DNA of 40,971 nt. It comes from a virus. Lineage: Duplodnaviria > Caudoviricetes. Below are positions 4,631 through 16,660 of this stretch, piece by piece (position 1 is the stretch's first letter; every line of letters begins with the position of its first letter). The position numbers and the translations under genes are program-made. The notes beneath the pieces were generated by a model. The model saw only the letters and a program-made list of their open reading frames with translations. It searched no databases and was not told the origin of the DNA. Location: IMG/VR virus record IMGVR_UViG_3300044976_000016, positions 1 to 40,971 of that record; one strand, written 5' to 3'.

Positions 4631-5695
4631 ATGGGCAACGCGATCACCGACCTCCTGCAAGGCGCAAGTAACGCTGCGGCGTCCAACGTCAGCGGCCCGG
4701 TTGACCTGTTCGCTGCTGCGCTTCGTGCTCTTGGCGTGCCTGTTCCTGAGAACGCGCTTCTCGGCTCGAAGTGGATGGAGGAGCGTGGGCTGACGAAGAA
4801 GCCGCAGAATGCGCTGATGGGCCTGCTGGGTGAGGCTGCCGGGCTGTCTGCTCCGATTGCCGCAGCGGCGAAGGCGCCGCAGATCGCGGCGGGGCTGCTG
4901 AAGCACGCTGACCAGTTCCAAGCCTACAACAAGGCTCTAGGGCCTGCTGGCGCTTCTCAGGCTGTGGTGTGGCACGGTTCGCCGCACAAGTTCGACAAGT
5001 TCGACTCTGCGCACATTGGGAAGGGCGAGGGGGCGCAGGCGTATGGGCATGGGCTGTATCTGGCTGAGTCGCCTGGGGTGGCTGGTTCATATGCAAAGAT
5101 GAACCCTGCGAGCACGGTAAAAGTTCAGCGCGTTTGGCCGTCGCGCGAACACCCAAACGGGGCGTATGAGGCGCTCATGGTGCGTGATAGCGGCCCCCTT
5201 GAAGAGCTTGGGGTGTTTGCGTCAAGGGCAGAAGCTGAAGCCGCGGCGCAGGCCGCCCGTGAATCTGCCAGCAACATCTACAAAGTAGACCTCCCCGACC
5301 CCCTAATAGCGCGGATGCTCGATTGGGATAAGCCGCTGCACAAACAGTCTGCGGAAGTGCAGCAGGCGATCAAAGATTTTGAGCCGATGCTGAAGGCGGC
5401 CGGCATGACAGACCCAAATGGCGGAACGTCTGGATTGCTTGGGAAAGGACTGTATGAGGCTCTTGGCTATGCGATGCGCAGCAAGGCGATAGAGCGCGGC
5501 ACTACGGCTGGCACGACATTGCAGCAGATGCAGGACAACTCATCCCGCGCACTACGGGCGGCCGGCATCCCCGGCATTCGCTACCTAGACAGCGGCAGCA
5601 GAGGCGCAGGCGCAGGCACTAGCAATTTCGTCGTCTTCCCGGGCGAGGAGAACGCGCTGCGCATCTTGGAGCGCAACGGTAGGCCGCTGCCATGA
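4631..5695 (+). CDS. Protein with ADP-ribosyltransferase-like domain of polyvalent proteins (ART-PolyVal-like)
   Basis: Motifs VWHGSPHKFDKF, GEGAQAYGHGLYLAE, IYKVDL, GIPGIRYLD..SR...NFVVF; SD GAGG upstream. Confidence 0.7.
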   Translation: MGNAITDLLQGASNAAASNVSGPVDLFAAALRALGVPVPENALLGSKWMEERGLTKKPQNALMGLLGEAAGLSAPIAAAAKAPQIAAGLLKHADQFQAYNKALGPAGASQAVVWHGSPHKFDKFDSAHIGKGEGAQAYGHGLYLAESPGVAGSYAKMNPASTVKVQRVWPSREHPNGAYEALMVRDSGPLEELGVFASRAEAEAAAQAARESASNIYKVDLPDPLIARMLDWDKPLHKQSAEVQQAIKDFEPMLKAAGMTDPNGGTSGLLGKGLYEALGYAMRSKAIERGTTAGTTLQQMQDNSSRALRAAGIPGIRYLDSGSRGAGAGTSNFVVFPGEENALRILERNGRPLP

Positions 5696-5937
5696 TGCCG
5701 CACCCGACGCGCTTGTATTGGGACGGCGCCAAGGGTTCGGCGTGGTTTCGCGGCACCGGTGTAAAGCTGCATGAACCGCCGGCCCCGTGGGGTGAGCCGC
5801 TTGCTTATGTGGAATACACCCCGCTAGGAAGCTCCACGATTGCAGAAGTGCGAGACCGGGCGATTGACTCTGTGCGACAAATGCGGCAGGACGAGATTGC
5901 GAAGGTGCTGCTGTTCCTCGGCAAGTTGTGCGGGTAG
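5692..5937 (+). CDS. Hypothetical protein; last gene of the rightward operon
   Basis: ATGA-coupled 81-aa ORF. Confidence 0.55.
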   Translation: MMPHPTRLYWDGAKGSAWFRGTGVKLHEPPAPWGEPLAYVEYTPLGSSTIAEVRDRAIDSVRQMRQDEIAKVLLFLGKLCG

Positions 5938-5943
5938 ACCTTG

Positions 5944-5962
5944 CGGCCAATCCTCGTTGGGC
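5944..5962 (+). mobile_element. attI-like simple site 1 (CGGCCAA-TCCTC-GTTGGGC)
   Basis: GTTRRRY core with no attC hairpin; preceded by a 16-bp motif repeated at 6483. Confidence 0.4.
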
Positions 5963-6175
5963 GTCATTCGAGGCAAGGCACAGCCAACGGGTACGCCCTT
6001 TGAACTTTCGCCAGATCGAAGGGGGCTCCAGGGTTCCCCACCCACTCAAAGTGAGCCTTGCGCAGTCTGTTGCGAGTCACGCGCACAAGCTGCGTTTTAA
6101 TCCACGGCAGCGACTAGATCGCCAAGCCGGGCAAAGCGGGTGCAGGTCACCCCTCGGCTTGCCCCTTGCCTGCTC

Positions 6176-6194
6176 TGTCTAGAACGTGTTAGCC
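6176..6194 (+). mobile_element. attI-like simple site 2 (TGTCTAG-AACGT-GTTAGCC)
   Basis: GTT core contains the TAA stop of the minus-strand gene; L-like box resembles that of site 4. Confidence 0.45.
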
Positions 6195-6461
6195 AAGCCG
6201 GCGCCACGGGCGATCCGCCCACCAAGCGCCAAGGCAAAACAGGACGCTGGTTCGACCATGCCGCTCGAAGACAGCTTCTCCTTCTTGCTGCCACTCAACT
6301 ACGCGATCCACGTCGTCCGCCAGCCTCTCGATTGCGTCTGCCGCTTCGCTCAGTGCAACGCTGTGCGGGTCGTCCTGCCCACTAGCAAGGAATCGCAGAC
6401 GTTCCACCAATGCCCGATCTGGCTCCGTGGGCCTGCGGTCGTCTTCCGTCTTCTCATCCAT
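6189..6461 (-). CDS. Hypothetical protein (MDEKTEDD...EAADAIERL)
   Basis: ORF with phage-type coiled-coil motif; stop lies within a GTT core. Confidence 0.55.
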   Translation of the reverse strand: MDEKTEDDRRPTEPDRALVERLRFLASGQDDPHSVALSEAADAIERLADDVDRVVEWQQEGEAVFERHGRTSVLFCLGAWWADRPWRRLG

Positions 6462-6502
6462 CGTCAGCCCTTTCGCGTGTAACGGGTAGACCTTGCGGGA
6501 TC

Positions 6503-6521
6503 GGTTCAACCCCTGTTCGGC
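6503..6521 (+). mobile_element. attI-like simple site 3 (GGTTCAA-CCCCT-GTTCGGC)
   Basis: GTT core at a gene end (…GPNRG*); preceded by the 16-bp repeat. Confidence 0.4.
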
Positions 6522-6880
6522 CCTATGGCCGCAGCAGCGAGCCTGTACATGCGCCGCGCTAGCTCTATTGCGTACGCTTCTTGTGCATGCACTGGCTCGC
6601 CGCATTCAGCGCCGGCCCACTCCTCTGCAATCTCGTGCAGCGCGCGGCGCAGCCGCTCTATCTCGGCCTTTGCATCGCGCAGCATGGCGGGGCTCGGCAT
6701 GTGATCGCCCCTAGCCGCCTCCGCTGCTGGGCGCCACCGCTCGCGCTCTGCGGCCATGGCGGAATCGAGCGCGGCTTGGTCGTACACCGGCCCCCATTCG
6801 CTGACGCTACTGTGGCTTGGCACGCGCTTGCGGAAGATCCAGCTATCTAGCCAGCGCCACCCGCAGGGCTGTACGTTCAT
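6506..6880 (-). CDS. Hypothetical protein (MNVQPCGWRW...AAERERW...EIERLR)
   Basis: SD-like GAAGGGG before ATG; phage early-region motifs. Confidence 0.6.
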   Translation of the reverse strand: MNVQPCGWRWLDSWIFRKRVPSHSSVSEWGPVYDQAALDSAMAAERERWRPAAEAARGDHMPSPAMLRDAKAEIERLRRALHEIAEEWAGAECGEPVHAQEAYAIELARRMYRLAAAAIGPNRG

Positions 6881-6890
6881 GTGATCCCCT

Positions 6891-7181
6891 TCATTGCAGC
6901 GCCCGGCTTCCGAGATGGTGAGGAACTTGGCGCGAAAGCCAGCGCAAGCACTGCTTGAGCGTGCCGCAGTATTCGACCTCGCCTGTCTCCATGTCCCGCA
7001 GCCGGCACGATGTGTAGCCAAGGCGCGGCTCGATCTGCCACTCCCGCCCACCGTGATGGCGAAGGTCAAGCGGTATCACGTCGCGCTCGTCGATGATTGG
7101 CTCGCGGTCTGGGATGCCGATGGAACGCTCATAGTCGGCGCGGTGCTCGGCCCAGCGGAGGGGGCGTTTGGGATTATGCAT
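6891..7181 (-). CDS. Hypothetical protein
   Basis: 96-aa ORF fitting between neighbours on the operon strand. Confidence 0.55.
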   Translation of the reverse strand: MHNPKRPLRWAEHRADYERSIGIPDREPIIDERDVIPLDLRHHGGREWQIEPRLGYTSCRLRDMETGEVEYCGTLKQCLRWLSRQVPHHLGSRALQ

Positions 7182-7202
7182 GGCGGCAAAGTTGCGCGAC
7201 GT

Positions 7203-7221
7203 TGCCTAAAACACGTTAGGC
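7203..7221 (+). mobile_element. attI-like simple site 4 (TGCCTAA-AACAC-GTTAGGC), heading the attC array
   Basis: Resembles the class 1 attI core CCCTAAAACAAAGTT (one base shorter); its R end matches R'' of the next attC at 9/10. Confidence 0.55.
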
Positions 7222-7646
7222 CCGCTTCTCTTGCGAGCCGCCAAGTCTATGAACGCTTGGCAGTTCGTCGCGTCGCACGGCGTGTGATGCCTATGATCCG
7301 GGTCTTCAATCTCCACGCACGCGCCTTGGCCGTCTTCGCACTTGTGCGCGCACTGCACGATGGTTTGCCACCGCTCGCGCTCTGCGGCCACGGCTTCATC
7401 TATCCGGCGTTGCCACTCAATCGGGTGTCCGACCGCCTCAAGTGCGCCAGAGCACTCGCCCAGTTCGGAGCGCAGGCGGTCAATCTCGTCTGCAGCTGCG
7501 TCGGCCTCATCAATCAGCACTTGCAGCGCGTGCATGGCCGGGCGCGTGTTCGTGAACGTGTAGCGCATCACCTCGTTCACGGCTTCGCGCAACGGGCCCA
7601 ACCCGTCAGTCAACCGGACCTTGGCCGGCGTTGCTTGGTCAGTCAT
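7206..7646 (-). CDS. Cassette A hypothetical protein (MTDQATPAKVRLTDGLGP...GPNVF)
   Basis: SD AGGAG and ATG lie in the loop of attC 7596-7690. Confidence 0.65.
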   Translation of the reverse strand: MTDQATPAKVRLTDGLGPLREAVNEVMRYTFTNTRPAMHALQVLIDEADAAADEIDRLRSELGECSGALEAVGHPIEWQRRIDEAVAAERERWQTIVQCAHKCEDGQGACVEIEDPDHRHHTPCDATNCQAFIDLAARKRSGPNVF

Positions 7647-7690
7647 CGTTGCTCCTGTTGCGGCCAAGGCCGGTTACTTCTACGTTGTGC
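7596..7690 (+). mobile_element. attC-like site 1
   Basis: GCCCAAC-CCGTC-AGT(C)AACCGG(A)CCTTGGCCG...CGGCCAAGGCCGGTTACT-TCTAC-GTTGTGC. Confidence 0.85.
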
Positions 7691-7697
7691 CCCAGCC

Positions 7698-8552
7698 TTA
7701 CGCCACTGCCAGGACATGCCCACGCGGCACCTTGAAACCGGCCGCCTTGGCGTGCCCACCACCGCCGTACTGCTTCGCCACCTCCGACACGTCCACGCCT
7801 TCGTCGGTGGCGCGCAGGCCGAACACGCGGCCCTCGGCCGTGTCCCAGTAGCAGGCCGCGAACGGCTCGCCCTGCGCCATTAGGTGCGCCGCGTCGCTCA
7901 CCAGCGTGTAGGGCAGGCTGGCCACCGGCACGTCATAGGCGCCGATCACCATGCGCCGCTTGCACACCGCGACCAGCTCGGCCACATCCTTGTGGTGCTT
8001 GCGCTCGATGGCGGCGCCCGCCGCGGTCATCTTCAGCAGTTCCACCTGATCGGCGCTCATCAGCTTGTCCCACAACTCGAAGCTGTATTCGTGCGAGAAC
8101 ACGAACGCCTGAATCTCGCGCGTGCCCGGCAGCTTGAAGCGCCACAGGTCGCGGTCCTCCACATGGCCCAGCAGCAGCGGGCGGTCTTCGCCGGGGAAAA
8201 GGTAGTCCCAGGCCAGCGTGGCGCCGCTGCGGTTCAGGTCGGTGAAATGCGCCAGTTGCTTCGGCTCGCCGGTCCACGAGTCCTGCATGAACAGCGGCTG
8301 CAGGTCTTCGATGGCGGTCTTGTGGTGGTCGATCAGGCACACGCTGTTGGCCTCGGCCAGCATGCGCTCCACCACCGCGCGCTTGTAGCTGAAGTCCACC
8401 AAGAACACGTCGCGCCCGCGCACGTCGGGCGGGTCTTGCTGGTACACGCCGGCCACGTAGTCAGCGCCGGTGCCGTACTTCCGCCAGAAGCACCAGGCGG
8501 CGCTGAAGCCGTCCGCGCAGTTGCCGTGGTAGATCACAAGGGGTCGGTTCAC
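7698..8552 (-). CDS. DHH/DHHA1-family phosphoesterase (NrnB/oligoribonuclease-like), cassette B
   Basis: Motifs YHGNCADG, LVDF, IDHH, EDRDLW, GGGGH..AAGF; SD AAGGA before GTG. Confidence 0.85.
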   Translation of the reverse strand: MNRPLVIYHGNCADGFSAAWCFWRKYGTGADYVAGVYQQDPPDVRGRDVFLVDFSYKRAVVERMLAEANSVCLIDHHKTAIEDLQPLFMQDSWTGEPKQLAHFTDLNRSGATLAWDYLFPGEDRPLLLGHVEDRDLWRFKLPGTREIQAFVFSHEYSFELWDKLMSADQVELLKMTAAGAAIERKHHKDVAELVAVCKRRMVIGAYDVPVASLPYTLVSDAAHLMAQGEPFAACYWDTAEGRVFGLRATDEGVDVSEVAKQYGGGGHAKAAGFKVPRGHVLAVA

Positions 8553-8582
8553 TCGTCTTTCCTTTGGCTTCGGGTGAGAGGG

Positions 8583-8640
8583 GCACAACCCCTCAGTCAA
8601 CGCGACGGCCTACGGCCGCGCGTTACTTCGATCGTTAGGC
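8583..8640 (+). mobile_element. attC-like site 2 (58 bp)
   Basis: GCACAAC-CCCTC-AGT(C)AACGCG(A)CGGCC-TAC-GGCCGCGCGTTACT-TCGATC-GTTAGGC; same architecture as aadA-type 59-base elements. Confidence 0.9.
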
Positions 8641-8642
8641 GT

Positions 8643-8840
8643 CTATTCGTCCTGCATAGATTTCAGCCCCATCGATTCGCGCAGCATCCGTTCCACCTGA
8701 AACAGTGCTTCACGAACCGCGCCAATTTCGTCCACGCTGTACGTCACCAAGTGGCTGGCGTCTTTGTAGCCTTCCCACTTGACCGTGCCGGAGTCAAGGC
8801 GGCGGCGCTTTCCAGTGCGAATCTGAATTTCAATGTCCAT
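8643..8840 (-). CDS. Cassette C hypothetical protein (MDIEIQIRTGKRRR...)
   Basis: Single ORF filling the cassette; stop 2 bp from R'. Confidence 0.6.
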   Translation of the reverse strand: MDIEIQIRTGKRRRLDSGTVKWEGYKDASHLVTYSVDEIGAVREALFQVERMLRESMGLKSMQDE

Positions 8841-8869
8841 CGTCGTTTTCCGTGTTCGTTCACCAAGAC

Positions 8870-8932
8870 GCCTAACTGTCGCTTCGAGCGGACGGCCCCC
8901 AAGGGGCCGCGCGCTCAAGCTAATCGTTAGGC
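8870..8932 (+). mobile_element. attC-like site 3
   Basis: GCCTAAC-TGTC-GCTT(C)GAGCGG(A)CGGCCCC-CAA-GGGGCCGCGCGCTCAAGC-TAATC-GTTAGGC. Confidence 0.88.
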
Positions 8933-8940
8933 CACGCAAT

Positions 8941-9138
8941 TCAGTAGTCGCGCGCCCGTGCCGCAGCTTCGCGGCTCTCTTTGGTGCTCGTCAGCGCCTG
9001 GGAATACATAGCCGCGTACCCATTGGATGCCGGCTCCACAGCAACGCCTCCGGCCGGCGTCCAGCCGCGATCCAGCAACTCATTCACCTTCAGCTCAAGC
9101 TCGCTTGGCCCGTAGCCGGTAGCAATCTGGTAGTCCAT
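8941..9138 (-). CDS. Cassette D small protein, DUF1737-like
   Basis: Pattern Y.I.....L...VNE.L..GW...GG....Y.QA; SD AGGAG. Confidence 0.6.
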   Translation of the reverse strand: MDYQIATGYGPSELELKVNELLDRGWTPAGGVAVEPASNGYAAMYSQALTSTKESREAAARARDY

Positions 9139-9165
9139 CGTTCTCTCCTTCGGCCACCATGCGTG

Positions 9166-9252
9166 GCCTAACCCGTCACTCCAAGCGGACGCCCGGCGGC
9201 ATCCGCGCCCTTCGGCCCTGCCGTGCAGGCGCCGCTTAGTTCTGCGTTCGGC
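9166..9252 (+). mobile_element. attC-like site 4
   Basis: GCCTAAC-CCGTC-ACT(CC)AAGCGG(A)CGCC...GGCGCCGCTTAGT-TCTGC-GTTCGGC. Confidence 0.85.
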
Positions 9253-9253
9253 T

Positions 9254-9633
9254 TCACTTCTGCGCGCCGACGCTCATGAACGGCACAGGGTGCTAGGCAC
9301 GATGGAATAGCGCACGGTTAGGCTTGTCTTCACGGGTTGCGTGTCGCTCGTGGCGCCGTCCGCCTCCTTAACGTCTGCCTGTTCGGCGCGGATGTTGAAA
9401 ATGCTCAGTGCCTGCCAGGGCGCGATGAGCGTGAACCCATCGTTCTCGATGCCCTTGATCGCTCCCCCGACGGTGATGACGCCGCGGTGCCCTGTCGGCA
9501 CGGTGCGAATCGGCCAGAACATCACCAGCAGGACCAGCAGCACGAACACAGCCATGCCGTCGCGCACCAACGGGAATACGCGAACGGCATTCCCGCGCGG
9601 GGTTGCTTCAAGGTATCGATTCAGAAAGCTCAT
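9254..9633 (-). pseudogene. SPFH/prohibitin (band 7) gene with apparent internal deletion, cassette E
   Basis: TM helix then TVPTGHRGV...APWQ...TSDTQPV...VRY breaks off at ~110 aa; an out-of-frame tail PVPFMSVGAQK* ends next to R'. Confidence 0.65.
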
Positions 9634-9667
9634 TCATTCCTCCAGTTGTGGCTTCGTTGTGGGTGAA

Positions 9668-9724
9668 GCCGAACCCATCGCTGAACGGGACGCCTAGCGG
9701 CGCCCGTTAGCTCCACCGTTAGGC
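9668..9724 (+). mobile_element. attC-like site 5 (57 bp)
   Basis: GCCGAAC-CCATC-GCT(G)AACGGG(A)CGCC-TAGC-GGCGCCCGTTAGC-TCCACC-GTTAGGC. Confidence 0.9.
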
Positions 9725-9964
9725 GTCGAAGTCATCGCGCGCCGGTTTGTTGATTTGACGCTCCGCTTTGTGGGTGCGCCGCTTGTGGTGCTTCCCGCCT
9801 CGTGGCGACAAAGTGCCGCCCGCCTTGTTGTAGGGCCGCGCGCTCCAGTATTCGTAGCCGGTGCCTTTGGGCTCCTTGCAGGTGCGTTTCCTCGCGCTCA
9901 CGACGCCTAACCTTTCGCTCAAGGGCGACCCAGCACGGCGGGTCGCGTTGTCACGCTTCGGCAC
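9719..9964 (-). CDS. Cassette F small basic protein (…KGTGYEYWSARP…HKAERQ)
   Basis: TAA stop inside R' of site 5; start uncertain (GTG in the attC 6 loop or near 9901). Confidence 0.55.
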   Translation of the reverse strand: MPKRDNATRRAGSPLSERLGVVSARKRTCKEPKGTGYEYWSARPYNKAGGTLSPRGGKHHKRRTHKAERQINKPARDDFDA

Positions 9965-10006
9965 GGCCCGTGCGCCGTGCTGATCGCCTTAGCTCAATCG
10001 TTAGGC
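9905..10006 (+). mobile_element. attC-like site 6
   Basis: GCCTAAC-CTTTC-GCT(C)AAGGGCGACCCAGCACGGCG...CGCCGTGCTGATCGCCTTAGC-TCAATC-GTTAGGC. Confidence 0.85.
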
Positions 10007-10375
10007 CCGCTCCAGCCATCGGCTAGCCAGAAACGCCACCGCTGCGGCCTTGTGCTCGTGCTTTGGCGCGAAGGAGCCCTGAATCACCTGCAGGTGCCGC
10101 ATCGCCTTCCGCAGGTCGATTCCCGCCCTCGGCGTCGGCGCTTGCTTCAGTCCGCAGTAAAACCACTCAGCCTGCCATTGCGCCCACGGGTGCGCGCTGC
10201 ACTTGAACTCGTCAGGAATCTGGCTGTACTCAGGCATCAGTTTCAGGGCGCGCGCCGGGAACGCGCAGTCGGCATCTGTCACATCATGCGGCGTGTCAAA
10301 GTCCGCGCGCTCCGGCTCCAGCCGCCCAACCCCTCGGTGAACGGCGACGCCCGCCGGCTGGTCACTCTTGCTCAT
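10001..10375 (-). CDS. Cassette G phage-type hypothetical protein (…SFAPKHEHKAAAVAFL)
   Basis: SD AGGAGG and ATG in the attC 7 loop; TAA stop in R' of site 6. Confidence 0.7.
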   Translation of the reverse strand: MSKSDQPAGVAVHRGVGRLEPERADFDTPHDVTDADCAFPARALKLMPEYSQIPDEFKCSAHPWAQWQAEWFYCGLKQAPTPRAGIDLRKAMRHLQVIQGSFAPKHEHKAAAVAFLASRWLERA

Positions 10376-10425
10376 CTGCCACCTCCTGCGCGGCCGTCGG
10401 TCGCGCGTTACCTCGAACGTTGGGC
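10324..10425 (+). mobile_element. attC-like site 7 (imperfect inner stem)
   Basis: GCCCAAC-CCCTC-GGT(G)AACG...CGTTACC-TCGAAC-GTTGGGC. Confidence 0.75.
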
Positions 10426-10622
10426 GTCTTACTGCGCACCGACTCAAGCGCTCCGCAACGCGGGCAGAGCTCATCGGCGGCGCCGTATGCTGCGCGGCAG
10501 TGCGCGCACTCGTATCCAGTAACCTGCTTACTGGTTTGCGGCTTATCCAGCAACCCAGGTTGCTGCCTTGCGGCCTGCCGTGCGGCATCGCGCCGCGCGT
10601 GATCTGTGGTGTACCAGCTCAT
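10362..10622 (-). CDS. Zinc-ribbon protein (CAHC...CPRC); C-terminus reads through the attC 7 right arm
   Basis: Two CxxC pairs; ATGA-coupled to the upstream gene; ends KTPNVRGN... Confidence 0.6.
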   Translation of the reverse strand: MSWYTTDHARRDAARQAARQQPGLLDKPQTSKQVTGYECAHCRAAYGAADELCPRCGALESVRSKTPNVRGNARPTAAQEVADEQE

Positions 10623-10807
10623 GTGTCGTCCCATTCCAGCATCCAGTGCGGCATTGCCACTCGCGCCATCATCCACTCCGGCCACGCCCGCACTTCGCGC
10701 TGCGCTGCCGTTATCTGCGCCAGTAGAGCCGCGCGCTTCGGACACGGCCGCCCAACACGCCGTTCGAGCCGAGGCGCAACGGCAGCTTTTCGCTTCGGGT
10801 CAGTCAT
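10619..10807 (-). CDS. Cassette H hypothetical protein (MTDPKRKAAVAPRLERRVGRP...)
   Basis: ATG in the loop of attC 8; N-terminus encoded by the attC arm. Confidence 0.55.
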   Translation of the reverse strand: MTDPKRKAAVAPRLERRVGRPCPKRAALLAQITAAQREVRAWPEWMMARVAMPHWMLEWDDT

Positions 10808-10837
10808 CGCGCGCCCGGCTCAACGGCAACGTTGGGC
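10750..10837 (+). mobile_element. attC-like site 8
   Basis: GCCCAAC-ACGC-CGTT(C)GAGCCG(A)GGCGC...GCGCCCGGCTCAACG-GCAAC-GTTGGGC. Confidence 0.85.
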
Positions 10838-10977
10838 GTCTTGCTGCACACGGCCCGCGCCACGTTAAGCGCTCTGAGCTTCGCGTCGATGTCGGCAACC
10901 GGCTCGCGCATGAAGTCGATGGTGATGCCGTGCTCATGGCCCTGCGCTTCCGGGTCGCGGCAAGCCGCGCCGTGCAA

Positions 10978-10996
10978 CTTAGCTCCCACGTTAGGC
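10978..10996 (+). mobile_element. attC right half-site (L' CTTAGC-TCCCAC-R' GTTAGGC); left arm missing
   Basis: Same L'/R' spacing as sites 5 and 6; contains the TAA of gene 10991..11218. Confidence 0.6.
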
Positions 10997-11218
10997 CCTG
11001 CGCACTGCGGCTGTGCAGTCCCATCCCACATTTTCACTGGGCTTCACTCCGCGCCGTCTGCACTCTGTCATGTAGTGCGCAAGCGCCTGGTCTGCAGCAT
11101 GGTCGAGTGCCGCCTGCCAGCAGCGGCGCAATCGCCGCGTCTCTAGGTCGTCGTCGCTCGGCAGGTACTTTCCACCGCGACACTCTGCTTCCCACTTAGC
11201 CCACTCATCAAATTTCAT
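10991..11218 (-). CDS. Hypothetical protein (MKFDEWAKWE...RCWQAAL)
   Basis: SD GAGGA; stop lies in the R' box. Confidence 0.6.
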   Translation of the reverse strand: MKFDEWAKWEAECRGGKYLPSDDDLETRRLRRCWQAALDHAADQALAHYMTECRRRGVKPSENVGWDCTAAVRRA

Positions 11219-11258
11219 GTTGTCCTCGCTGTAGGTGCGCTGTTAAGCGGACTGCCTG

Positions 11259-11281
11259 CGTTAACATTGCGCTCAAGCGGA
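11259..11281 (+). mobile_element. attC left half-site (CGTTAAC-ATTGC-GCT(C)AAGCGG(A)); right arm missing
   Basis: R''/L'' spacing as in site 6; lies within a 31-aa minus-strand ORF 11215..11310 (MSEPTQAVGAPLERNV...). Confidence 0.5.
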
Positions 11282-11313
11282 GCACCAACGGCCTGGGTAG
11301 GTTCACTCATTTC

Positions 11314-11532
11314 TCAGGCCTTCAATTCAAAGCGCAATCGGTCAACGAAGTCTGCGCACTCGTTTCTGTAGCGCGCCCATCCCGCGTAAGGCGTGGGAGG
11401 CTGCTTGGGAAGCGCTTGCAAAATGCGCGTCACCAACGGGCGATCGTCTTCCTGTAGTGGGCGCACTTCCGCGCGCTCCGGCGCCAGGCCGAACCCTGCG
11501 TTCGAGCCGTTCAGCAGCATCGGGCGCTTCAC
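11314..11532 (-). CDS. Hypothetical protein
   Basis: GTGA-coupled chain in the early-left operon. Confidence 0.5.
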   Translation of the reverse strand: MKRPMLLNGSNAGFGLAPERAEVRPLQEDDRPLVTRILQALPKQPPTPYAGWARYRNECADFVDRLRFELKA

Positions 11533-11699
11533 GAAAACATCCCTCGCTCGATCGGCAAGCCTTCTTCTACCATGCGCGCAGCCTCGCGCAGCGCCCAGGC
11601 AATCGCGGCGCGGTCGTCTTTGCTGCTCCCGGCGTCACTCACGCTCACGTCCAGTTCGCCATCGTCGTCGTGCTGAATCACTACCGTGTACGTGCTCAT
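11529..11699 (-). CDS. Hypothetical protein (MSTYTVVIQHDDDG...)
   Basis: Purine-rich RBS; coupled to neighbours. Confidence 0.55.
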   Translation of the reverse strand: MSTYTVVIQHDDDGELDVSVSDAGSSKDDRAAIAWALREAARMVEEGLPIERGMFS

Positions 11700-11713
11700 G
11701 TTTTCTCTCTTCG

Positions 11714-12160
11714 TTACGCCCGCTGGCTCAGGTGATGCTTTGACCACGGCCCGCGGATCATCCTCTCGAATCTCTCGCGCGCCTCGGGATTGTGGTCGAT
11801 GTCGGCGCGGCTATCGACTCCGCAGATCATGCGAACGACACATGCTGCGCGGTCTGCACCGCTGCCGGCTTGGAATGCGTGCGTAACCTCCTCGCACGCT
11901 TCCAGATATGTGTCCGACAGCCACAACTGAAACTCCAGCTCGTTGCACCGCATGCCGAGCCATTTGGAAATCTCGCCGCCCTTCGGCTTCTCGGGCTTTT
12001 CAACGACGGTAAGCAGCCGCGCGAGAGCGATAGGCGTTCCGGGGGCGCCGAATAGCCGGAAGCCGTCCTGCGCGTGGCGCGGCTCGATGTCGCAGACGAT
12101 CCTAAGCGTTCCGTCGGCCATCGTCTGAAGGCGCACGGTGGAGGCTTCGATTGCGCTCAT
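11714..12160 (-). CDS. Phage hypothetical protein (…TMADGTLRIVCDIEP…CGVDSRADID)
   Basis: ATGA-coupled; composition typical of lambdoid early proteins. Confidence 0.65.
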   Translation of the reverse strand: MSAIEASTVRLQTMADGTLRIVCDIEPRHAQDGFRLFGAPGTPIALARLLTVVEKPEKPKGGEISKWLGMRCNELEFQLWLSDTYLEACEEVTHAFQAGSGADRAACVVRMICGVDSRADIDHNPEARERFERMIRGPWSKHHLSQRA

Positions 12161-12429
12161 GGCATCGGCCTTTCGGGACGCATGCACTTCCCGGCGTGAG
12201 AGCAGTGCGGTTGCCATATGCAATCGTGTTCACTCGCGCATTTGCGGCTGCTCTCGATGGCGAGCGCATCGCGCAATCGCTCAATCTCCGCGTCTGCTGA
12301 CAGCGTCAGTTCGGCCGCAGCGTGGCGGGCGTCTCGGTGGCCGTACTTGTAGCCACGGCAGAAGGCGTCGGATTCAGCGCCAGCATCCACATTGTCCGGC
12401 AGGTTCATGATCTGTCTGTGAAGGCTCAT
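12157..12429 (-). CDS. Hypothetical protein (MSLHRQIMNL…GHRDARHAAAE)
   Basis: ATGA-coupled. Confidence 0.6.
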   Translation of the reverse strand: MSLHRQIMNLPDNVDAGAESDAFCRGYKYGHRDARHAAAELTLSADAEIERLRDALAIESSRKCASEHDCIWQPHCSHAGKCMRPERPMP

Positions 12430-12728
12430 GTCTGCACCATCGCAGCAGCAGCGCGCACGATTGCGCGGCGTGTGGCGGCGCCGACGTTCTCCGCGCCTTT
12501 AAATGGCTCTTGAACTTCGACCGCTTCACATTGCGTATCCTTGCCGGGGTAGCCCCATACCTCTGTGTATCGGCTATGCCCGATGTCCACAGTAAGGCTC
12601 AGTTCCACCGCAAGACGCAGCGCATCACCGTCGTCGGTTAGCGGGTTCCACTTGCCGTGCGACAGGAGATTCTCGTACTCCACGCCAGCCGCCTTAGCGG
12701 CCCTCTCCAGCAGTTCGCGGTCTGTCAT
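12426..12728 (-). CDS. Phage hypothetical protein (MTDRELLERAAKAAG…WNPLTDDGDALRLAV…ATRRAIVRAAA)
   Basis: Recognisable widespread phage motif set; SD GGAG. Confidence 0.75.
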   Translation of the reverse strand: MTDRELLERAAKAAGVEYENLLSHGKWNPLTDDGDALRLAVELSLTVDIGHSRYTEVWGYPGKDTQCEAVEVQEPFKGAENVGAATRRAIVRAAAAMVQT

Positions 12729-12763
12729 AACTTCATCTCCCCGATAACGACGAGGCTTGGGCA

Positions 12764-13096
12764 TCACGCCACCATCGCCTGCATGGCCTGCTGCAGCGCC
12801 TTCGCGCGCTCGCGGTGCCTGCTCTGCCGCTCGGCATGCGTTCGCGGTGCGGGCCGGGGCGCGTTGCGTCCCTTGCCCAGCTTGTACGCCCGGAGCGTCC
12901 GTCGGCCTCGGGTGTCCTCGTGCCACGCGGCAACATGGATCAGCCCGCGAGCGAACAACGTGGCGATGTAGCGCCGCGTCGTGGTGTAGCTGACGCCTGT
13001 CTCGTCGCTGATGTCCACCACCGACACGGGTCCGTGCATCAGGGCTTCGATCATGATGGCCGACGACAGGTGATTGAGAGTTGACGGTCGTTTCAT
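12764..13096 (-). CDS. Winged-helix DNA-binding protein
   Basis: SVVDISDETGVSYTTTRRYI HTH followed by IHVAAW…YKLG wing. Confidence 0.65.
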   Translation of the reverse strand: MKRPSTLNHLSSAIMIEALMHGPVSVVDISDETGVSYTTTRRYIATLFARGLIHVAAWHEDTRGRRTLRAYKLGKGRNAPRPAPRTHAERQSRHRERAKALQQAMQAMVA

Positions 13097-13803
13097 GCCG
13101 CCTCTTTCGCCGGATTGGCCTTGATGAACGCCCGCAAGCGGGACTCAGGTGTGGAACCGCCGCCGGGGCCTTTCAGGAAGCCCCACACACACATCTTTTC
13201 CTCGTTCGTCGGCAGCGAGTAGTAGCCCTTCGCGGCTTCCAGTTCGCGGCCGGATGTGAACAGGTCCAGCATGTCGGCGGCGTACACCTCAAGCTCGTCA
13301 ACACGCTCCTGAGTCAAGCCGTCCATGCGCTCGATGCGCTCCTGATCCCGCCAGTGCTTGTCAGCGGACGCGACGTACTTGGAGTCATCCCACATGCCCG
13401 AGAAGATGTCGCCAGCGAAGCCGAGGTAACTCGCGCACTTCACCAGCGCGTCGGTGACGGACTTCTTTGGCGCGTCCTCGTCCACCATCAGCCCGCCGTC
13501 GCTTTTCTTGTACGTGGCCTTCGTCTGCCCGATCTGCTGCAACTCCCCGCGCTTGCCGTCGAGCACGTACCAAAGCGACACGACGGCGATGTGCAGGGTG
13601 TCGGTGTCGGTCAGGCGCTCCATGCGCTCACTGGCGATCTGGAAGCCCCAGCCGATGCCGCATGGCCCGAACTCGTCGGTCAGGCGCTCGACGATCCAGT
13701 ACGGTTTCGGACTGTTGCCCTTGTACTGCTTGCCGGTGATCGGCTTTACCGCCTTCGGGTCGGTGGTGAAGGCGCGTTCCCACAGTGCCTTATTCGGGTT
13801 CAC
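13093..13803 (-). CDS. Rad52/Sak-like single-strand annealing protein
   Basis: Motifs LTDEFGPCGIGWG, DEDAPKKSVTDALVKCASYLGFAGDIF, DDSKY. Confidence 0.75.
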   Translation of the reverse strand: MNPNKALWERAFTTDPKAVKPITGKQYKGNSPKPYWIVERLTDEFGPCGIGWGFQIASERMERLTDTDTLHIAVVSLWYVLDGKRGELQQIGQTKATYKKSDGGLMVDEDAPKKSVTDALVKCASYLGFAGDIFSGMWDDSKYVASADKHWRDQERIERMDGLTQERVDELEVYAADMLDLFTSGRELEAAKGYYSLPTNEEKMCVWGFLKGPGGGSTPESRLRAFIKANPAKEAA

Positions 13804-13921
13804 GCATGCTCTCCTGTTGCTCGCACTGAGCAGTGATGATTGCCTCGCGCTGGTATTCCTCGGCCAGCACATCTAGGATGGATTCGAGCGCCGCTTCGAC
13901 GGCTTCGTCTTCGTCGTTCAT
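13790..13921 (-). CDS. Small acidic protein (MNDEDEAVEAALES…)
   Basis: ATGA-coupled; very acidic. Confidence 0.45.
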   Translation of the reverse strand: MNDEDEAVEAALESILDVLAEEYQREAIITAQCEQQESMREPE

Positions 13922-14145
13922 TGCCACGCCCACCGCGCCCACTCGAAGAGGCGCCACAGCCCAGCGACGGCCAGCACCACGCCGCAGACAGCGAAGGGCC
14001 AGACAATCGCGCCGCGACCTTCGACGGGATCGTCCTGGCCGATGTCCGTAGCAGCCTCGGCGTAGCACTGGCCGGGGCTCTGGCACTCGGTGCGGCCTTG
14101 CCAGCAGTCGCCGCGGCAGCCTGTGAAGCGCATGGCCGGGCTCAC
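13918..14145 (-). CDS. Small Cys-containing membrane protein
   Basis: CxxxCxQGRxxC motif plus C-terminal TM helix; coupled. Confidence 0.5.
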   Translation of the reverse strand: MSPAMRFTGCRGDCWQGRTECQSPGQCYAEAATDIGQDDPVEGRGAIVWPFAVCGVVLAVAGLWRLFEWARWAWQ

Positions 14146-14321
14146 GACAGCCACCCCACAGCGACAGCAGCGAGGACAGCGACGAGGCCGACAGCGATGA
14201 GCAGATCGGTAATCGCGTGGCGGCGCTCGAAGCTATAGACGGCATAGGCGCTATCGACCGTGCTGGCTCCGGTGCGAGGCGCATAGCGCCAGCGCCTCCA
14301 GTGCGTGTCCTTGGGGCTCAT
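14142..14321 (-). CDS. Small membrane protein (MSPKDTHWRRWRY…LLIAVGLVAVLAAVAVGWLS)
   Basis: Read manually; overlapping stop/start at both ends. Confidence 0.5.
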   Translation of the reverse strand: MSPKDTHWRRWRYAPRTGASTVDSAYAVYSFERRHAITDLLIAVGLVAVLAAVAVGWLS

Positions 14322-14545
14322 TGCTTGCCCTCCGCTTTGGCGATGGCATACCGTGCCATTTCGGCCATGTTCTCAGCCAGCAACTCGGCCAACTGCTCGC
14401 ACAGATCGCGCAGTGCTTCGCACTCTGTGGGTCCGCGACCGGTGGGGCCGTTTGCCTCGCCCTCATCGGCCTTGAGATATGCCATCCAGTCGTACATCGT
14501 GGTAGGCACGGGAGGGCGCACGTAGGATGTGACGATGAGGCTCAT
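14318..14545 (-). CDS. Hypothetical protein (…PPVPTTMYDWMA…G.GPTE.EAL.DL)
   Basis: SD GGAGG, ATGA coupling; phage-type motif. Confidence 0.65.
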   Translation of the reverse strand: MSLIVTSYVRPPVPTTMYDWMAYLKADEGEANGPTGRGPTECEALRDLCEQLAELLAENMAEMARYAIAKAEGKQ

Positions 14546-14745
14546 TGCTTGCCCTCCGCTATCTCGCACTGATCCGTTGCGTCGAGCAGCATCTGCGCCA
14601 GCGCTCGCGCCTTCGCGGGCGGTAGCCGCACGCCTCCGCTCATCGGGCCGGCGAACAGGTGAAACCAAACGGTCTTGTTGTCAGGCCTGGCGGAGAAGTC
14701 CCATTCGACTTCGTGGGGCAGATTGATAATGATGTGCTTCGTCAT
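14542..14745 (-). CDS. Hypothetical protein
   Basis: ATGA-coupled. Confidence 0.55.
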   Translation of the reverse strand: MTKHIIINLPHEVEWDFSARPDNKTVWFHLFAGPMSGGVRLPPAKARALAQMLLDATDQCEIAEGKQ

Positions 14746-15299
14746 GCCGCCCCCTGGTCTTCCGCTGCGCTGATCGCCGCCTCTTCCGCGGCCTCGGCTG
14801 CCTCGCCTTCGAGCCGGAGCGTGATCGCATCGACCAGTTCATCGGCCAGCGTATCGCCAGCGTTGTCCCCGAAGGCCTCCGCGGGCGCCATCCACTCGCC
14901 ACCGAACCAGATCAGCAGGTCATCGATCTCGCTGCTCGTGCGACCGTGCAGGTCTTCGTCCACGTAGAACGACACGAGCACGTGCATGTCGGCCTTGCCG
15001 AGCGTGACGGTGTGGCGCTCGTAGTGCTGCCACCGCGGCCCGATGGGCTTCGGCGGGTGCTTCATCGCGTCCAACTCCGCGCGGAGGTGGCGGGCTTCGG
15101 CGGTCATCTCCCCGACCGTGCCTGCGAGCCGCGCGATGCGCTGGGCGTCGCTCTCGACGTGCGCGGGGTACTGAGCCCGCTCGCCGGTCAGCGGCGGAAC
15201 CTGCGCCCAGCGGTGCTCCAGCATGCGGGCGCTGCCGGTGGGCTCGTTGCCAGGAATGTCGGCGGTTGTGACGCCGGGCGGCATGTTCCAGGTGCTCAT
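14742..15299 (-). CDS. First gene of the early-left operon (MSTWNMPPGVT..DIPGN), acidic C-terminus
   Basis: SD GGAGG; directly downstream of the pL-like promoter. Confidence 0.65.
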   Translation of the reverse strand: MSTWNMPPGVTTADIPGNEPTGSARMLEHRWAQVPPLTGERAQYPAHVESDAQRIARLAGTVGEMTAEARHLRAELDAMKHPPKPIGPRWQHYERHTVTLGKADMHVLVSFYVDEDLHGRTSSEIDDLLIWFGGEWMAPAEAFGDNAGDTLADELVDAITLRLEGEAAEAAEEAAISAAEDQGAA

Positions 15300-15357
15300 C
15301 GCTGCATCCCTCCGCGCCGCTGACTCCCACGAGCCACATTGCGACGCGATGGAAGAG

Positions 15358-15386
15358 ATTAGACAAGGCTGACCAAGGCTTGTCAA
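15358..15386 (-). promoter_or_regulatory. pL-like sigma70 promoter (TTGACA-17-TCTAAT) with TTAGACA/TGTCTAA operator-like boxes
   Basis: Perfect -35 and 17-bp spacer; TTAGACA recurs inverted at ~15396 and at ~15723 in pR. Confidence 0.7.
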
Positions 15387-15435
15387 TACAAAACTGTCTA
15401 ATCCCGACAAAAATACAAGGGATTGCGGGGCCTAC

Positions 15436-15741
15436 TCAAGGCGCCCGGTACAGCAGTTCCCACGCCCGCAGGCCGCATCCTGCCGCAATTTCTTCCAGCT
15501 TGTCCAGCGTCACGGCATGCTGGCCTTTCGCGGCCCTGGCGATCAGCCGCACATCAAGCCCGCGAGCCATGGCCCAGGCACGCACGCTAGGGCGCTTCCC
15601 ACGCGGTGTGTCGGCCGCGATCATCCGCCGCAAATTTGCGGCAAGAATGGCTCGAGCCGACTCGTGATGCAGAAAAAGACCGCGCGGCTTAGTATGGTAT
15701 GAATGTTGAAAAACTTGCACTCTTAGACAGGATTGCCGCAC
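15436..15741 (-). CDS. Short XRE-family HTH repressor (CI-like); start uncertain
   Basis: ILAANLRRM…VTLDKLEEIAAGCGLRAWELL; divergent from the cro-like gene; no peptidase domain. Confidence 0.7.
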   Translation of the reverse strand: MRQSCLRVQVFQHSYHTKPRGLFLHHESARAILAANLRRMIAADTPRGKRPSVRAWAMARGLDVRLIARAAKGQHAVTLDKLEEIAAGCGLRAWELLYRAP

Positions 15742-15744
15742 AAT
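15715..15744 (+). promoter_or_regulatory. pR-like promoter (TTGCAC-18-CACAAT), probably giving a leaderless cro mRNA
   Basis: -10 ends 6 nt before ATG 15751; no SD; TTAGACA box in the spacer. Confidence 0.55.
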
Positions 15745-15750
15745 GCTCCC

Positions 15751-15948
15751 ATGTTGACACGAGAGTCTTTGGCCGATCTGTTGCGCGATGTGCGCGTCAT
15801 TGATGTTGCCCGCGAAGCCGCGGTCTGCACGAAGACGATCTATCGCCTACGGCACCAGGCACACGCGCCCACCCTCACCACGCTGGAGCGTGTGCTCAAG
15901 GCAGTTGAGCGCGTCAAAGAGCGCAAGGCCGCGCCTGATGCTGCTTGA
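15751..15948 (+). CDS. Cro-like HTH protein
   Basis: VIDVAREAAVCTKTIYRLR…PTLTTLERV. Confidence 0.75.
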   Translation: MLTRESLADLLRDVRVIDVAREAAVCTKTIYRLRHQAHAPTLTTLERVLKAVERVKERKAAPDAA

Positions 15949-16165
15949 CGCCATGGCCCCGTGCCAGGGTCGTCACATCGCTGTGAGCAATCGGCATGCC
16001 GGTATCTGCATCGGCTGCGCACGCTGGCACCCGCGCACGCGCTCGCCGCGAGCGATCGAGCCCGCAGCGGCCCAAGACGCGGAAGGCGTCTATCAGTGCA
16101 TCAACAGGCGCAGCAGTGGACATCCGGTCACTGTGGACCTCGAACAGTCGGCGTCACATCCCTAA
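15938..16165 (+). CDS. Small Cys-rich hypothetical protein
   Basis: Overlaps the cro stop; C…CxxCxR…C pattern. Confidence 0.45.
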   Translation: MLLDAMAPCQGRHIAVSNRHAGICIGCARWHPRTRSPRAIEPAAAQDAEGVYQCINRRSSGHPVTVDLEQSASHP

Positions 16166-16207
16166 CTCTCGGCATGTGGCAATAAACAGCATTCGGAGAA
16201 GTCGGGA

Positions 16208-16441
16208 ATGGTCGAACTCAAGCCTTGCCCCTTCTGCGCCGCCGATGGCGAGTGGATGATGGACCTGTTTGACACGTTCGACGCCGGCCACATCGCATAC
16301 GTCCGATGCGGTCGATGCGACTCCGCTGGGCCGAGCAAGTATTCCGAGGTCAGCGCGCAGGACGCGGCCAATGAAGCGCGGGTCATGTGGAACCGGAGGT
16401 GCCGTAGGCAATCCTCGTGCCCTCCGCTTTCCTGTCGTTGA
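16208..16441 (+). CDS. Lar-family (restriction alleviation-like) zinc-ribbon protein
   Basis: ELKPCPFC…VRCGRC…GP…A…WNRR signature. Confidence 0.7.
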   Translation: MVELKPCPFCAADGEWMMDLFDTFDAGHIAYVRCGRCDSAGPSKYSEVSAQDAANEARVMWNRRCRRQSSCPPLSCR

Positions 16442-16453
16442 GATGAGGGCAGC

Positions 16454-16660
16454 ATGAACCGCTACGCAACCCAAGGCCGGCTGCTCATCGAGGCGATCCG
16501 CAATCGCCCGATGACGTATCAAGAAATGCTCAAGGTCGGCATCTCGACGGCGCCCTGGAAGCGCGTGGCCGAAAGCCTCGGCCCGCAAGAACGCATCAGC
16601 AAGGGCGTGCGGGTCGTCGGCGGGCGCTCTCTCGTGACGTGGCGGGTGGTGCGGGCGTGA
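16454..16660 (+). CDS. Small putative DNA-binding protein
   Basis: SD GAGG; GTGA-coupled to the initiator gene. Confidence 0.6.
   Translation: MNRYATQGRLLIEAIRNRPMTYQEMLKVGISTAPWKRVAESLGPQERISKGVRVVGGRSLVTWRVVRA

What the first reader, a model, noticed from the sequence alone, without database searches (positions are those of the whole stretch)
7215..10756. Each cassette's two ends are complementary: footprint of real excision/integration events
Seen: the sequence from each GTT onward is the reverse complement of the sequence ending at the NEXT site's AAC. Pairs: GTTGTGCCCC(7684)/GGGGCACAAC(8589), 10 bp; GTTAGGCGTCT(8634)/AGACGCCTAAC(8876), 11 bp; GTTAGGCCACGCA(8926)/TGCGTGGCCTAAC(9172), 13 bp; GTTCGGCTTCAC(9246)/GTGAAGCCGAAC(9674), 12 bp; GTTAGGCGTCG(9718)/CGACGCCTAAC(9911), 11 bp; GTTGGGCG(10419)/CGCCCAAC(10756), 8 bp; 7215/7602 match at 9/10. 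The 10000/10330 pair is weaker. Non-consensus cores (GTTGTGC, GTTCGGC) co-vary with the partner hundreds of bases away rather than with their own hairpin. Established: this is expected when a circular cassette is opened at G|TT. Inference: cassette bounds are 7216-7684, 7685-8634, 8635-8926, 8927-9246, 9247-9718, 9719-10000, 10001-10419 and 10420-10831.
Basis: partly seen in the sequence, partly recalled or inferred. Interest (0 to 1): 0.85.

Follow-up and report, generated by a model that had tools for sequence, protein, structure and literature searches.

The report
Backwards integron cassette array in phage
The matching ends are real but are the normal signature of integron gene cassettes; the unusual part is that this phage holds eight such cassettes with their genes facing backwards, ending at a fixed site that other phages fill with different cassettes, likely moved by an integron integrase that this phage lacks but some other phages carry.

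Summary
Confirmed: 6 of 8 end pairs are exact (one uninformative), one matches 9/10, one fails (permutation 4/40,320). The pairing is generic to integron cassettes: 107 of 134 bacterial control cassettes show it, out to about 12 bp. It marks the unit, not a recent excision. The bounds hold: homologous cassettes in other phages stop at G|TT with new neighbours. The context is what matters. The window is a complete phage without integrase. Its eight canonical attC sites have their top strand on +, but all cassette genes lie on -, several starting inside the attC loop. Viral arrays: 212 reverse, 12 forward, 33 unclear of 257; bacterial: 6, 73, 55 of 134. Site 7215 is an attI-like dock: 15 of 15 loci of the adjacent 96-aa gene carry it, with changing first cassettes. 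Other phages hold a true IntI at that position (26 reverse, 0 forward, 9 unclear). Phage attC arrays are in print (Qi 2023, forward example); I found no paper on the inverted layout. New variant of a known kind.

The parts
6891..7181 (-). 96-aa conserved gene at the position that intI takes in other phage arrays ('dock gene'); function unknown
   Evidence: 35 other relatives at 59-78%, 51 representatives by profile; no Pfam/PHROG family at useful E; model pLDDT 89, helix + 4 strands + helix; no fold match
7182..7221 (+). attI-like docking site, no hairpin; inverted L-like box 5 nt before G|TT, crossover 7215|7216
   Evidence: 15 of 15 loci of the gene family have GTT 33-34 nt from the start codon, conserved to the G and variable after the core; BLAST homology with the window ends at 7221-7226
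7216..7684 (.). cassette 1; gene 7206-7646 (-) starts with SD+ATG inside its attC (7596-7690) and reads through G|TT
7685..8634 (.). cassette 2; DHH phosphoesterase gene 7698-8552 (-); attC 8583-8640
   Evidence: phrog_4771 E 1e-103; same ends with other neighbours in L008 and L009, damaged right site in L005
8635..8926 (.). cassette 3; 65-aa gene 8643-8840 (-); attC 8870-8932
   Evidence: 8 relatives at 65-88%
8927..9246 (.). cassette 4; DUF1737-like gene 8941-9138 (-); attC 9166-9252 with two adjacent extra bases in L''
   Evidence: PF08410 E 4e-5, 23.7 bits against cut-off 24
9247..9718 (.). cassette 5; truncated SPFH/Band 7 gene 9274-9633 (-); attC 9668-9724
   Evidence: PF01145 positions 2-73 of 176
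9719..10000 (.). cassette 6; gene ending 9719 (-), stop codon is the TTA of the core, start uncertain (9901 or 9964); attC 9905-10006
   Evidence: phrog_7399 E 1e-7
10001..10419 (.). cassette 7 (ends do not pair; likely chimera); gene 10001-10375 (-) starts with SD+ATG inside its attC 10324-10425, stops in the core
   Evidence: phrog_36680 E 2e-25 for residues 29-122; relatives in 23 cultured phage records
10420..10831 (.). cassette 8; two coupled genes, 10619-10807 (-, starts inside attC 10750-10837) and 10362-10622 (-, Com-like zinc ribbon, reads through G|TT and stops over the start of the cassette 7 gene)
   Evidence: PF10122 E 1e-4, below cut-off
10832..11530 (.). decayed continuation: right arm only at 10990, left arms only at 11263 and 11494 with gene starts inside them
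   Evidence: sequence; 10832-10875 matches a cassette end in L136
6160..6196 (+). probable second attI-like site; gene 6189-6461 (-) stops in its core
   Evidence: resembles array ends of L091 and L146 by eye; not tested further

Best explanation
This phage carries eight integron-type cassettes whose genes lie on the strand opposite to those of bacterial cassettes, stacked against a fixed docking site at 7215, and the cassettes are likely cut and joined at G|TT by an integron integrase (IntI) supplied from outside, since the genome encodes none. Shown: attC anatomy, end pairing, reverse genes, the docking site with changing first cassettes, sharp G|TT bounds in other phages, and true IntI genes at the same position in other phages. 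Inferred: the folded bottom strand is the substrate, as for known attC; IntI comes from the host or a co-infecting phage; the genes are read by the phage's leftward early transcript, which enters from the old end of the array and runs on through the dock into the 96-aa gene (or intI), so no integron promoter is needed and the newest cassette is the last read. In this layout each cassette's own attC lies at the 5' end of its gene and can hold the ribosome site and start codon, while the core supplies the stop codon.
For: Canonical sites and pairing. Reverse gene calls for all 8 window cassettes, 7 with clear scores. Viral arrays: 126 reverse, 1 forward, 20 unclear of 147 and 86, 11, 13 of 110 with a second pattern; bacterial control with the first pattern: 6, 73, 55 of 134; by locus 81 reverse, 4 forward, 7 undecided of 92 viral against 1, 23, 8 of 32 bacterial. 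Mirror anatomy: commonest viral stop at G+1 (51 cassettes) or G+8 (22), commonest bacterial stop at C-1 (25) or C-8 (7). SD+ATG inside long attC on the bottom strand: 77 of 220 viral, 3 of 144 bacterial. Same cassette, new neighbours at G|TT: L084/L156, L136/L149, L093/L142, window/L008. Dock: 15 of 15 loci. IntI: 6 of 7 recombinases beside viral arrays that I scanned pass TIGR02249 (360-466 bits, cut-off 265); 34 viral IntI loci give 26 reverse, 0 forward, 9 unclear of 35 cassettes, and the same intI and attI with different first cassettes (L479/L480; L486/L487/L497); tail or lysis genes in 3 of 5 such loci scanned. Phage attC sites are IntI1 substrates (PMC9892861).
Against: No recombination was tested; no integrase in the window, so the enzyme is inferred. 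The dock of this family differs in sequence from the attI beside phage IntI. Cassette 7 breaks the pairing; 19 of 147 and 13 of 110 viral cassettes pair better with the wrong end. Most DHH relatives have no attC, and the attC bodies of window, L008 and L009 differ much more than their genes, so other processes (deletion, homologous exchange) also act. Gene direction comes from my own ORF scoring, trained on this phage, with 13-41% unclear; loci overlap and are not independent; 18 of the 147 cassettes come from loci fetched with the DHH gene. The published phage array in TJE1 is forward, as is L358. No sigma-70 promoter was found for the supposed transcript.
Confidence: 0.8

Rival explanations
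1. A fossil: a block of cassettes taken once from a bacterial integron or from an IntI-bearing phage, now changing only by deletion and homologous recombination between similar hairpins.
For: No integrase in the window; half sites at 10990, 11263, 11494, a truncated gene in cassette 5 and a chimeric cassette 7; attC-less close relatives of the DHH gene and a left-over core in L016/L029.
Against: The dock is conserved across 43-78% identical relatives of the 96-aa gene and has a different first cassette in most of them; junctions are exact at G|TT, where homologous exchange would cross over anywhere in the hairpin; bacterial arrays have the other polarity; no viral cassette matched a bacterial one in my small sample.
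Confidence: 0.1
2. A recombinase other than IntI, or the 96-aa protein acting with a host enzyme, serves this dock.
For: The 96-aa gene replaces intI at the same position in 15 of 15 loci; a second family of about 100 aa sits at that position in 5 other arrays and is weakly similar (hhalign E 3e-4, probability 38%); earlier scan notes claim non-IntI enzymes for other phage arrays (not checked by me).
Against: The attC sites have the extra-base pattern that IntI reads (PMC5027507, passages); true IntI heads arrays of the same polarity and attC type, one with a DHH cassette (L486-L488); 96 aa is too short for a tyrosine recombinase and lacks its motif.
Confidence: 0.07
3. The units are small transposon-like elements with 10-13-bp terminal inverted repeats, and the hairpins between them are separate inserts or RNA signals.
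For: Each unit from GTT to AAC has inverted ends; in the DHH unit, similarity on the right fades soon after AAC.
Against: Other shared cassettes keep an identical or near-identical hairpin up to the G (L084/L156, L136/L149); the ends differ between units; the same pairing profile holds in bacterial integrons; no transposase in the window.
Confidence: 0.03

Closest known systems
Integron gene cassettes and attC sites (cassette definition in PMC2674596; strand choice in Nivina 2016, PMC5027507; both seen as passages)
   Same: Cassette runs from the T after G to the next G; the site that belongs to a cassette is that of the circular form; R/L boxes, extra bases, 57-102 bp; end pairing to about position 12 in both bacteria and phages.
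   Different: Genes lie on the attC bottom strand, attC at the 5' end of its gene, often holding the start codon; no promoter space beside the dock.
Phage-borne CALINs and integrons (Qi et al. 2023, PMC9892861; parts 2-4 of 7 read, supplement searched)
   Same: attC arrays without integrase in phage genomes; sites shown to recombine with IntI1.
   Different: Their TJE1 example is forward by my check; the text I read reports no systematic inversion, no phage-specific dock, and complete integrons only as pieces captured from hosts or class 1; 21 of 10,705 genomes, whereas one pattern alone hit about 210 IMG/VR stretches.
Inverted-integrase integrons (Spirochaetes; definition in PMC13323075 and 10.1101/2022.02.06.479319, passages)
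   Same: intI read in the same direction as the cassette genes.
   Different: There intI is flipped relative to attC; here intI keeps the regular orientation to attC and the cargo genes are flipped.
SALINs and attG insertion (Loot et al., 10.1101/2022.09.11.507474, passages)
   Same: Cassettes placed by IntI outside a complete integron; later loss of hairpins fixes the gene.
   Different: Here insertion stacks at one conserved site tied to one gene family, with one polarity.
PeSL-bounded modules of T4-type phages (PMC2839356, PMC4122927; search listing and abstract start only)
   Same: Repeated elements that organise shuffling of small accessory phage genes.
   Different: PeSLs are promoter-terminator motifs; these are attC sites with a fixed G|TT crossover.

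Membership tests
attC site | R''(AAC) - spacer - L'' ... L' - spacer - R'(GTT) imperfect palindrome | tested here: met
   8 of 8 sites; my detector finds 7 of 8 and 2 hits in 1.28 Mb of shuffled DNA
attC site | extrahelical bases on the L'' arm that set the recombined strand | tested here: met
   extra base at L'' position 4 on the + strand in 7 sites, two adjacent in site 4
attC site | folded bottom strand recombined by IntI | not testable with these tools
   needs a recombination assay
integron cassette | unit from G|TT to G|TT, mobile as a whole, R' and R'' complementary in the circle | tested here: met
   6 exact and one 9/10 of 8; shared cassettes with new neighbours; cassette 7 fails
integron cassette (textbook form) | gene on the attC top strand, followed by its attC | tested here: not met
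   all window genes on the bottom strand
complete integron | intI gene beside the array | tested here: not met
   none in the window; present in other phages with the same layout
complete integron | attI site at the head of the array | tested here: inconclusive
   position, no hairpin, conserved up to G|TT, variable first cassette in 15 of 15 loci; IntI binding not tested
complete integron | Pc promoter reading into the cassettes from the attI side | tested here: inconclusive
   0 sigma-70-type sites in 5600-17000; genes point towards the dock, so such a promoter would read them antisense
CALIN | two or more attC sites with no intI nearby | tested here: met
   8 sites, no intI in a complete 41-kb genome (71-nt terminal overlap)
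inverted-integrase integron | intI on the same strand as the attC top strand | tested here: not met
   no intI here; in 34 viral IntI loci no attC was found on intI's strand

The most novel reading that the evidence does not exclude
Phages run their own mirror-image integron: a class with a phage IntI clade and compact attI, plus integrase-free satellites whose dock is tied to a dedicated 96-aa factor that brings an IntI from the host or a co-infecting phage to it. Ordinary phage genes are turned into cassettes by gaining an attC over their ribosome site and start codon and a core over their stop codon, so near-identical gene pairs with and without attC (DHH, 97% identical) would show cassette birth and domestication directly.
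Probability: 0.2. Interest if true: 0.9.

Novelty: new variant of a known kind. Interest (0 to 1): 0.66.

Why it matters
How cassettes are first made is described as largely unknown (PMC5371416, passage). Here the same phage gene exists with and without attC ends at up to 97% protein identity, and a third of long viral attC sites contain the gene's own start, which makes birth-versus-loss testable. It also suggests that many phage accessory genes are shuffled by site-specific recombination rather than only by illegitimate exchange, that phages use the enzyme family bacteria use to collect anti-phage genes, and that these backward cassettes would be silent in a bacterial integron (and bacterial ones silent in the phage), keeping two gene pools apart on one chemistry. 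The finding as first written (matching ends) is ordinary.

Tried and rejected
Rfam: 0 matches. Cultured phages: only the DHH gene matches the array by DNA (31 records); one attC as query gave 3 chance rows; the two dock-gene families have no match among 50,697 records. Single-protein scans of viral contigs for cassettes 7 and 4 found nothing, so bounds were tested directly only for cassette 2 and the dock. DHH tree (quick, careful search unfinished): cassette and plain forms are mixed; it cannot order gain and loss. IntI tree (quick): 30 of 31 viral rows fall on one side of a branch at SH-aLRT 94, but with only 4 bacterial rows and a search seeded by one viral IntI, so a phage clade is not shown. 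Fold searches for the 96-aa protein: no Foldseek match at E 0.001, best VIA-align Z 4.3, Atlas best 0.84; first profile comparison with the second family was empty. Sequencing runs: no RNA holder listed; contigs of the probable source run match the window with no circle joint seen, which is no evidence either way; two contigs of other runs end at 7682 and 7684. Promoter scan empty. PH101 and P12002L arrays of Qi 2023 were not checked for polarity (only bases 1-1000 of PH101 fetched). A Chi-like octamer (motif recalled) beside R'' in 12 of 479 viral and 1 of 238 bacterial sites was not followed. A likeness of the dock to class 1 attI is recalled, not tested. No complex prediction was sent.
Full report
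Observation. Each GTT end pairs with the next AAC end for 3, 10, 11, 13, 12, 11, 3 and 8 nt, against 4, 3, 7, 3, 3, 7, 8, 8 for the AAC of its own hairpin; 4 of 40,320 permutations do as well. Five pairs are strongly informative, one (8 nt) is not, and 10000/10330 is contrary. Closing each unit at G|TT improves the bottom-strand fold in 6 of 8 sites, leaves one unchanged and worsens site 7. All eight sites have canonical attC anatomy with the extra L'' base on the + strand, so + is the top strand (anatomy as in PMC5027507, passages).

Is the pairing special? No. A cassette is defined from the T after G to the next G, and its own attC is that of the circle (PMC2674596, passages). With a detector of my own (7 of 8 window sites, 2 hits in 1.28 Mb shuffled) on loci from one pattern scan of bacterial genomes, 107 of 134 cassettes pair better with their own far end, 4 worse, 23 equal; viral loci give 100, 19, 28 of 147 and 73, 13, 24 of 110. 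In both groups the excess over random pairing lasts to about position 12 and then vanishes. So the 10-13-bp extension is generic.

Context. The window is a complete phage genome (71-nt terminal overlap; terminase, portal, head and ejection genes). No integrase was found among 72 ORFs by PHROGs, 41 by Pfam, by motif over all six frames or by tblastn with an IntI. The array lies at the far end of a leftward block that includes an exonuclease (13093-13872). All cassette genes are on the - strand, that is on the attC bottom strand. Stops fall in or near the core; cassettes 1, 7 and 8 start inside their own attC loop; genes without a stop at the core read into the next attC and end over the next start.

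This polarity is a phage trait. By an amino-acid model applied alike to both strands: viral set 1 (loci L001-L207; 147 distinct cassettes in 54 loci, 18 of them from DHH-seeded loci) 126 reverse, 1 forward, 20 unclear; bacterial set (L208-L346; 134 in 32 loci) 6, 73, 55; viral set 2 (second pattern, 118 stretches; 110 cassettes in 38 loci) 86, 11, 13, with 9 of the 11 forward ones on one contig that also holds an IntI and that I treated as bacterial later. A codon model gave 112, 1, 34 and 4, 50, 80. Cassettes shorter than 80 or longer than 1,300 nt were dropped; loci overlap, so counts are not independent. The commonest stop offsets mirror each other (viral G+1 and G+8, bacterial C-1 and C-8). 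A ribosome site plus ATG inside a long attC, open for 30 or more codons beyond it on the bottom strand, occurs in 77 of 220 viral and 3 of 144 bacterial sites. Against generality: the published TJE1 array is forward, as is L358.

For the DHH cassette, 80 viral loci were fetched. In 3 of 80 (L005, L008, L009) homology starts at 7682-7683 and the same ends recur with other neighbours; about 8 more carry other attC ends (L017, L021, L022, L068, L076-L079), and most, including the closest (97%, 94%), are plain phage genes; L016/L029 keep only a core of the L146 form (part was cut from view, one search lists 75 left ends). The attC bodies of window, L008 and L009 are far more diverged than the genes. 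Among other viral arrays, shared cassettes stop at G|TT on both sides, with identical or near-identical attC in L084/L156 and L136/L149. Scans for cassettes 4 and 7 found no loci.

The dock. 7215 has no hairpin. The ORF 6891-7181 (-) is a conserved 96-aa protein. All 7 loci fetched with close relatives (L505 and L506 are the same sequence) and all 8 with distant ones have GTT 33-34 nt from its start codon, conserved up to the G and variable after the core; a few share related first cassettes (L510, L512, L514). In 12 of 15 an attC is in view; the dock GTT pairs with the first detected far end for 9-13 nt in 8, 7-8 nt in 3 and 3 nt in 1; every cassette that could be called there is reverse. The protein folds confidently but matches nothing. 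A second family of about 100 aa sits at the same spot in 5 arrays and is weakly similar.

The enzyme. Six of seven recombinases beside viral arrays that I scanned are true IntI by TIGR02249. One of them fetched 34 viral loci: intI follows a compact attI-like site within some 35-70 nt, in the regular orientation to attC but in the same direction as the cargo genes (26 reverse, 0 forward, 9 unclear of 35; own-end pairing better in 32), and the same intI with the same site has different first cassettes. Three of five loci scanned have tail or lysis genes, the other two other phage-type genes; one array holds a distant DHH cassette. A phage IntI clade is hinted but not shown.

Mechanism. Shown: anatomy, polarity, bounds, dock, phage IntI elsewhere. 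Inferred: IntI acting from outside excises and inserts at G|TT through the folded bottom strand; the leftward phage transcript reads the array from its old end into the dock gene; loss of hairpins fixes genes (half sites at 10990, 11263, 11494). Confidence 0.8. Rivals: inert fossil 0.1, non-IntI or 96-aa-dependent route 0.07, transposon-like units 0.03.

Known and new. Phage attC arrays and their activity with IntI1 are in print (PMC9892861). My searches and passages of PMC8618304, PMC9024848, PMC13323075 and 10.1101/2022.02.06.479319 showed no report of systematically reversed genes, of a phage dock gene or of phage IntI read in line with its cassettes; subscription papers are not covered and bioRxiv supplements were closed. 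Earlier notes of this scan describe inverted phage arrays and docks on other DNA; I saw them, and a look-up with the 96-aa protein found none.

Noticed in passing
window 9274-9633 (-): Cassette 5 holds only the first 73 of 176 positions of an SPFH/Band 7 domain, yet its ends pair perfectly (12 nt).
   Followed up: partly
window 10930-11530: Half attC sites (right arm at 10990; left arms at 11263 and 11494) with gene starts inside them: the old end of the array is decaying into ordinary genes.
   Followed up: partly
window 6160-6196; 5925-5965; 6469-6523: A probable second attI-like site at 6190, and two damaged attC-like stretches sharing a 16-nt repeat at the junction of the early and late gene blocks.
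   Followed up: partly
window 10302-10330, 10729-10756, 11468-11494: Three units share a leader of 20-28 nt (82-95% alike) just inside R'', giving similar N-terminal peptides; a possible route to chimeric cassettes such as cassette 7.
   Followed up: no
L467-L500: 34 viral contigs with a true IntI directly behind a compact attI-like site and reversed cassettes; DNA methyltransferase, PAPS-reductase-like, Mom-like and Sie-like genes lie on the array side in the loci scanned.
   Followed up: partly
L091, L146, L355, L374, L415: A second family of about 100-aa proteins sits behind attI-like array ends, weakly similar to the window's 96-aa protein.
   Followed up: partly
viral attC set: A Chi-like octamer (recalled motif) lies beside R'' in 12 of 479 viral sites and 1 of 238 bacterial ones.
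   Followed up: no
window 4631-5695 (+): Gene with a weak ART-PolyVal (ADP-ribosyltransferase-like) match, 29.3 bits against cut-off 31.2, at the end of the late block.
   Followed up: no
L347 (NC_019930) 250-1513: The published TJE1 array has forward genes and the same paired cassette ends.
   Followed up: yes
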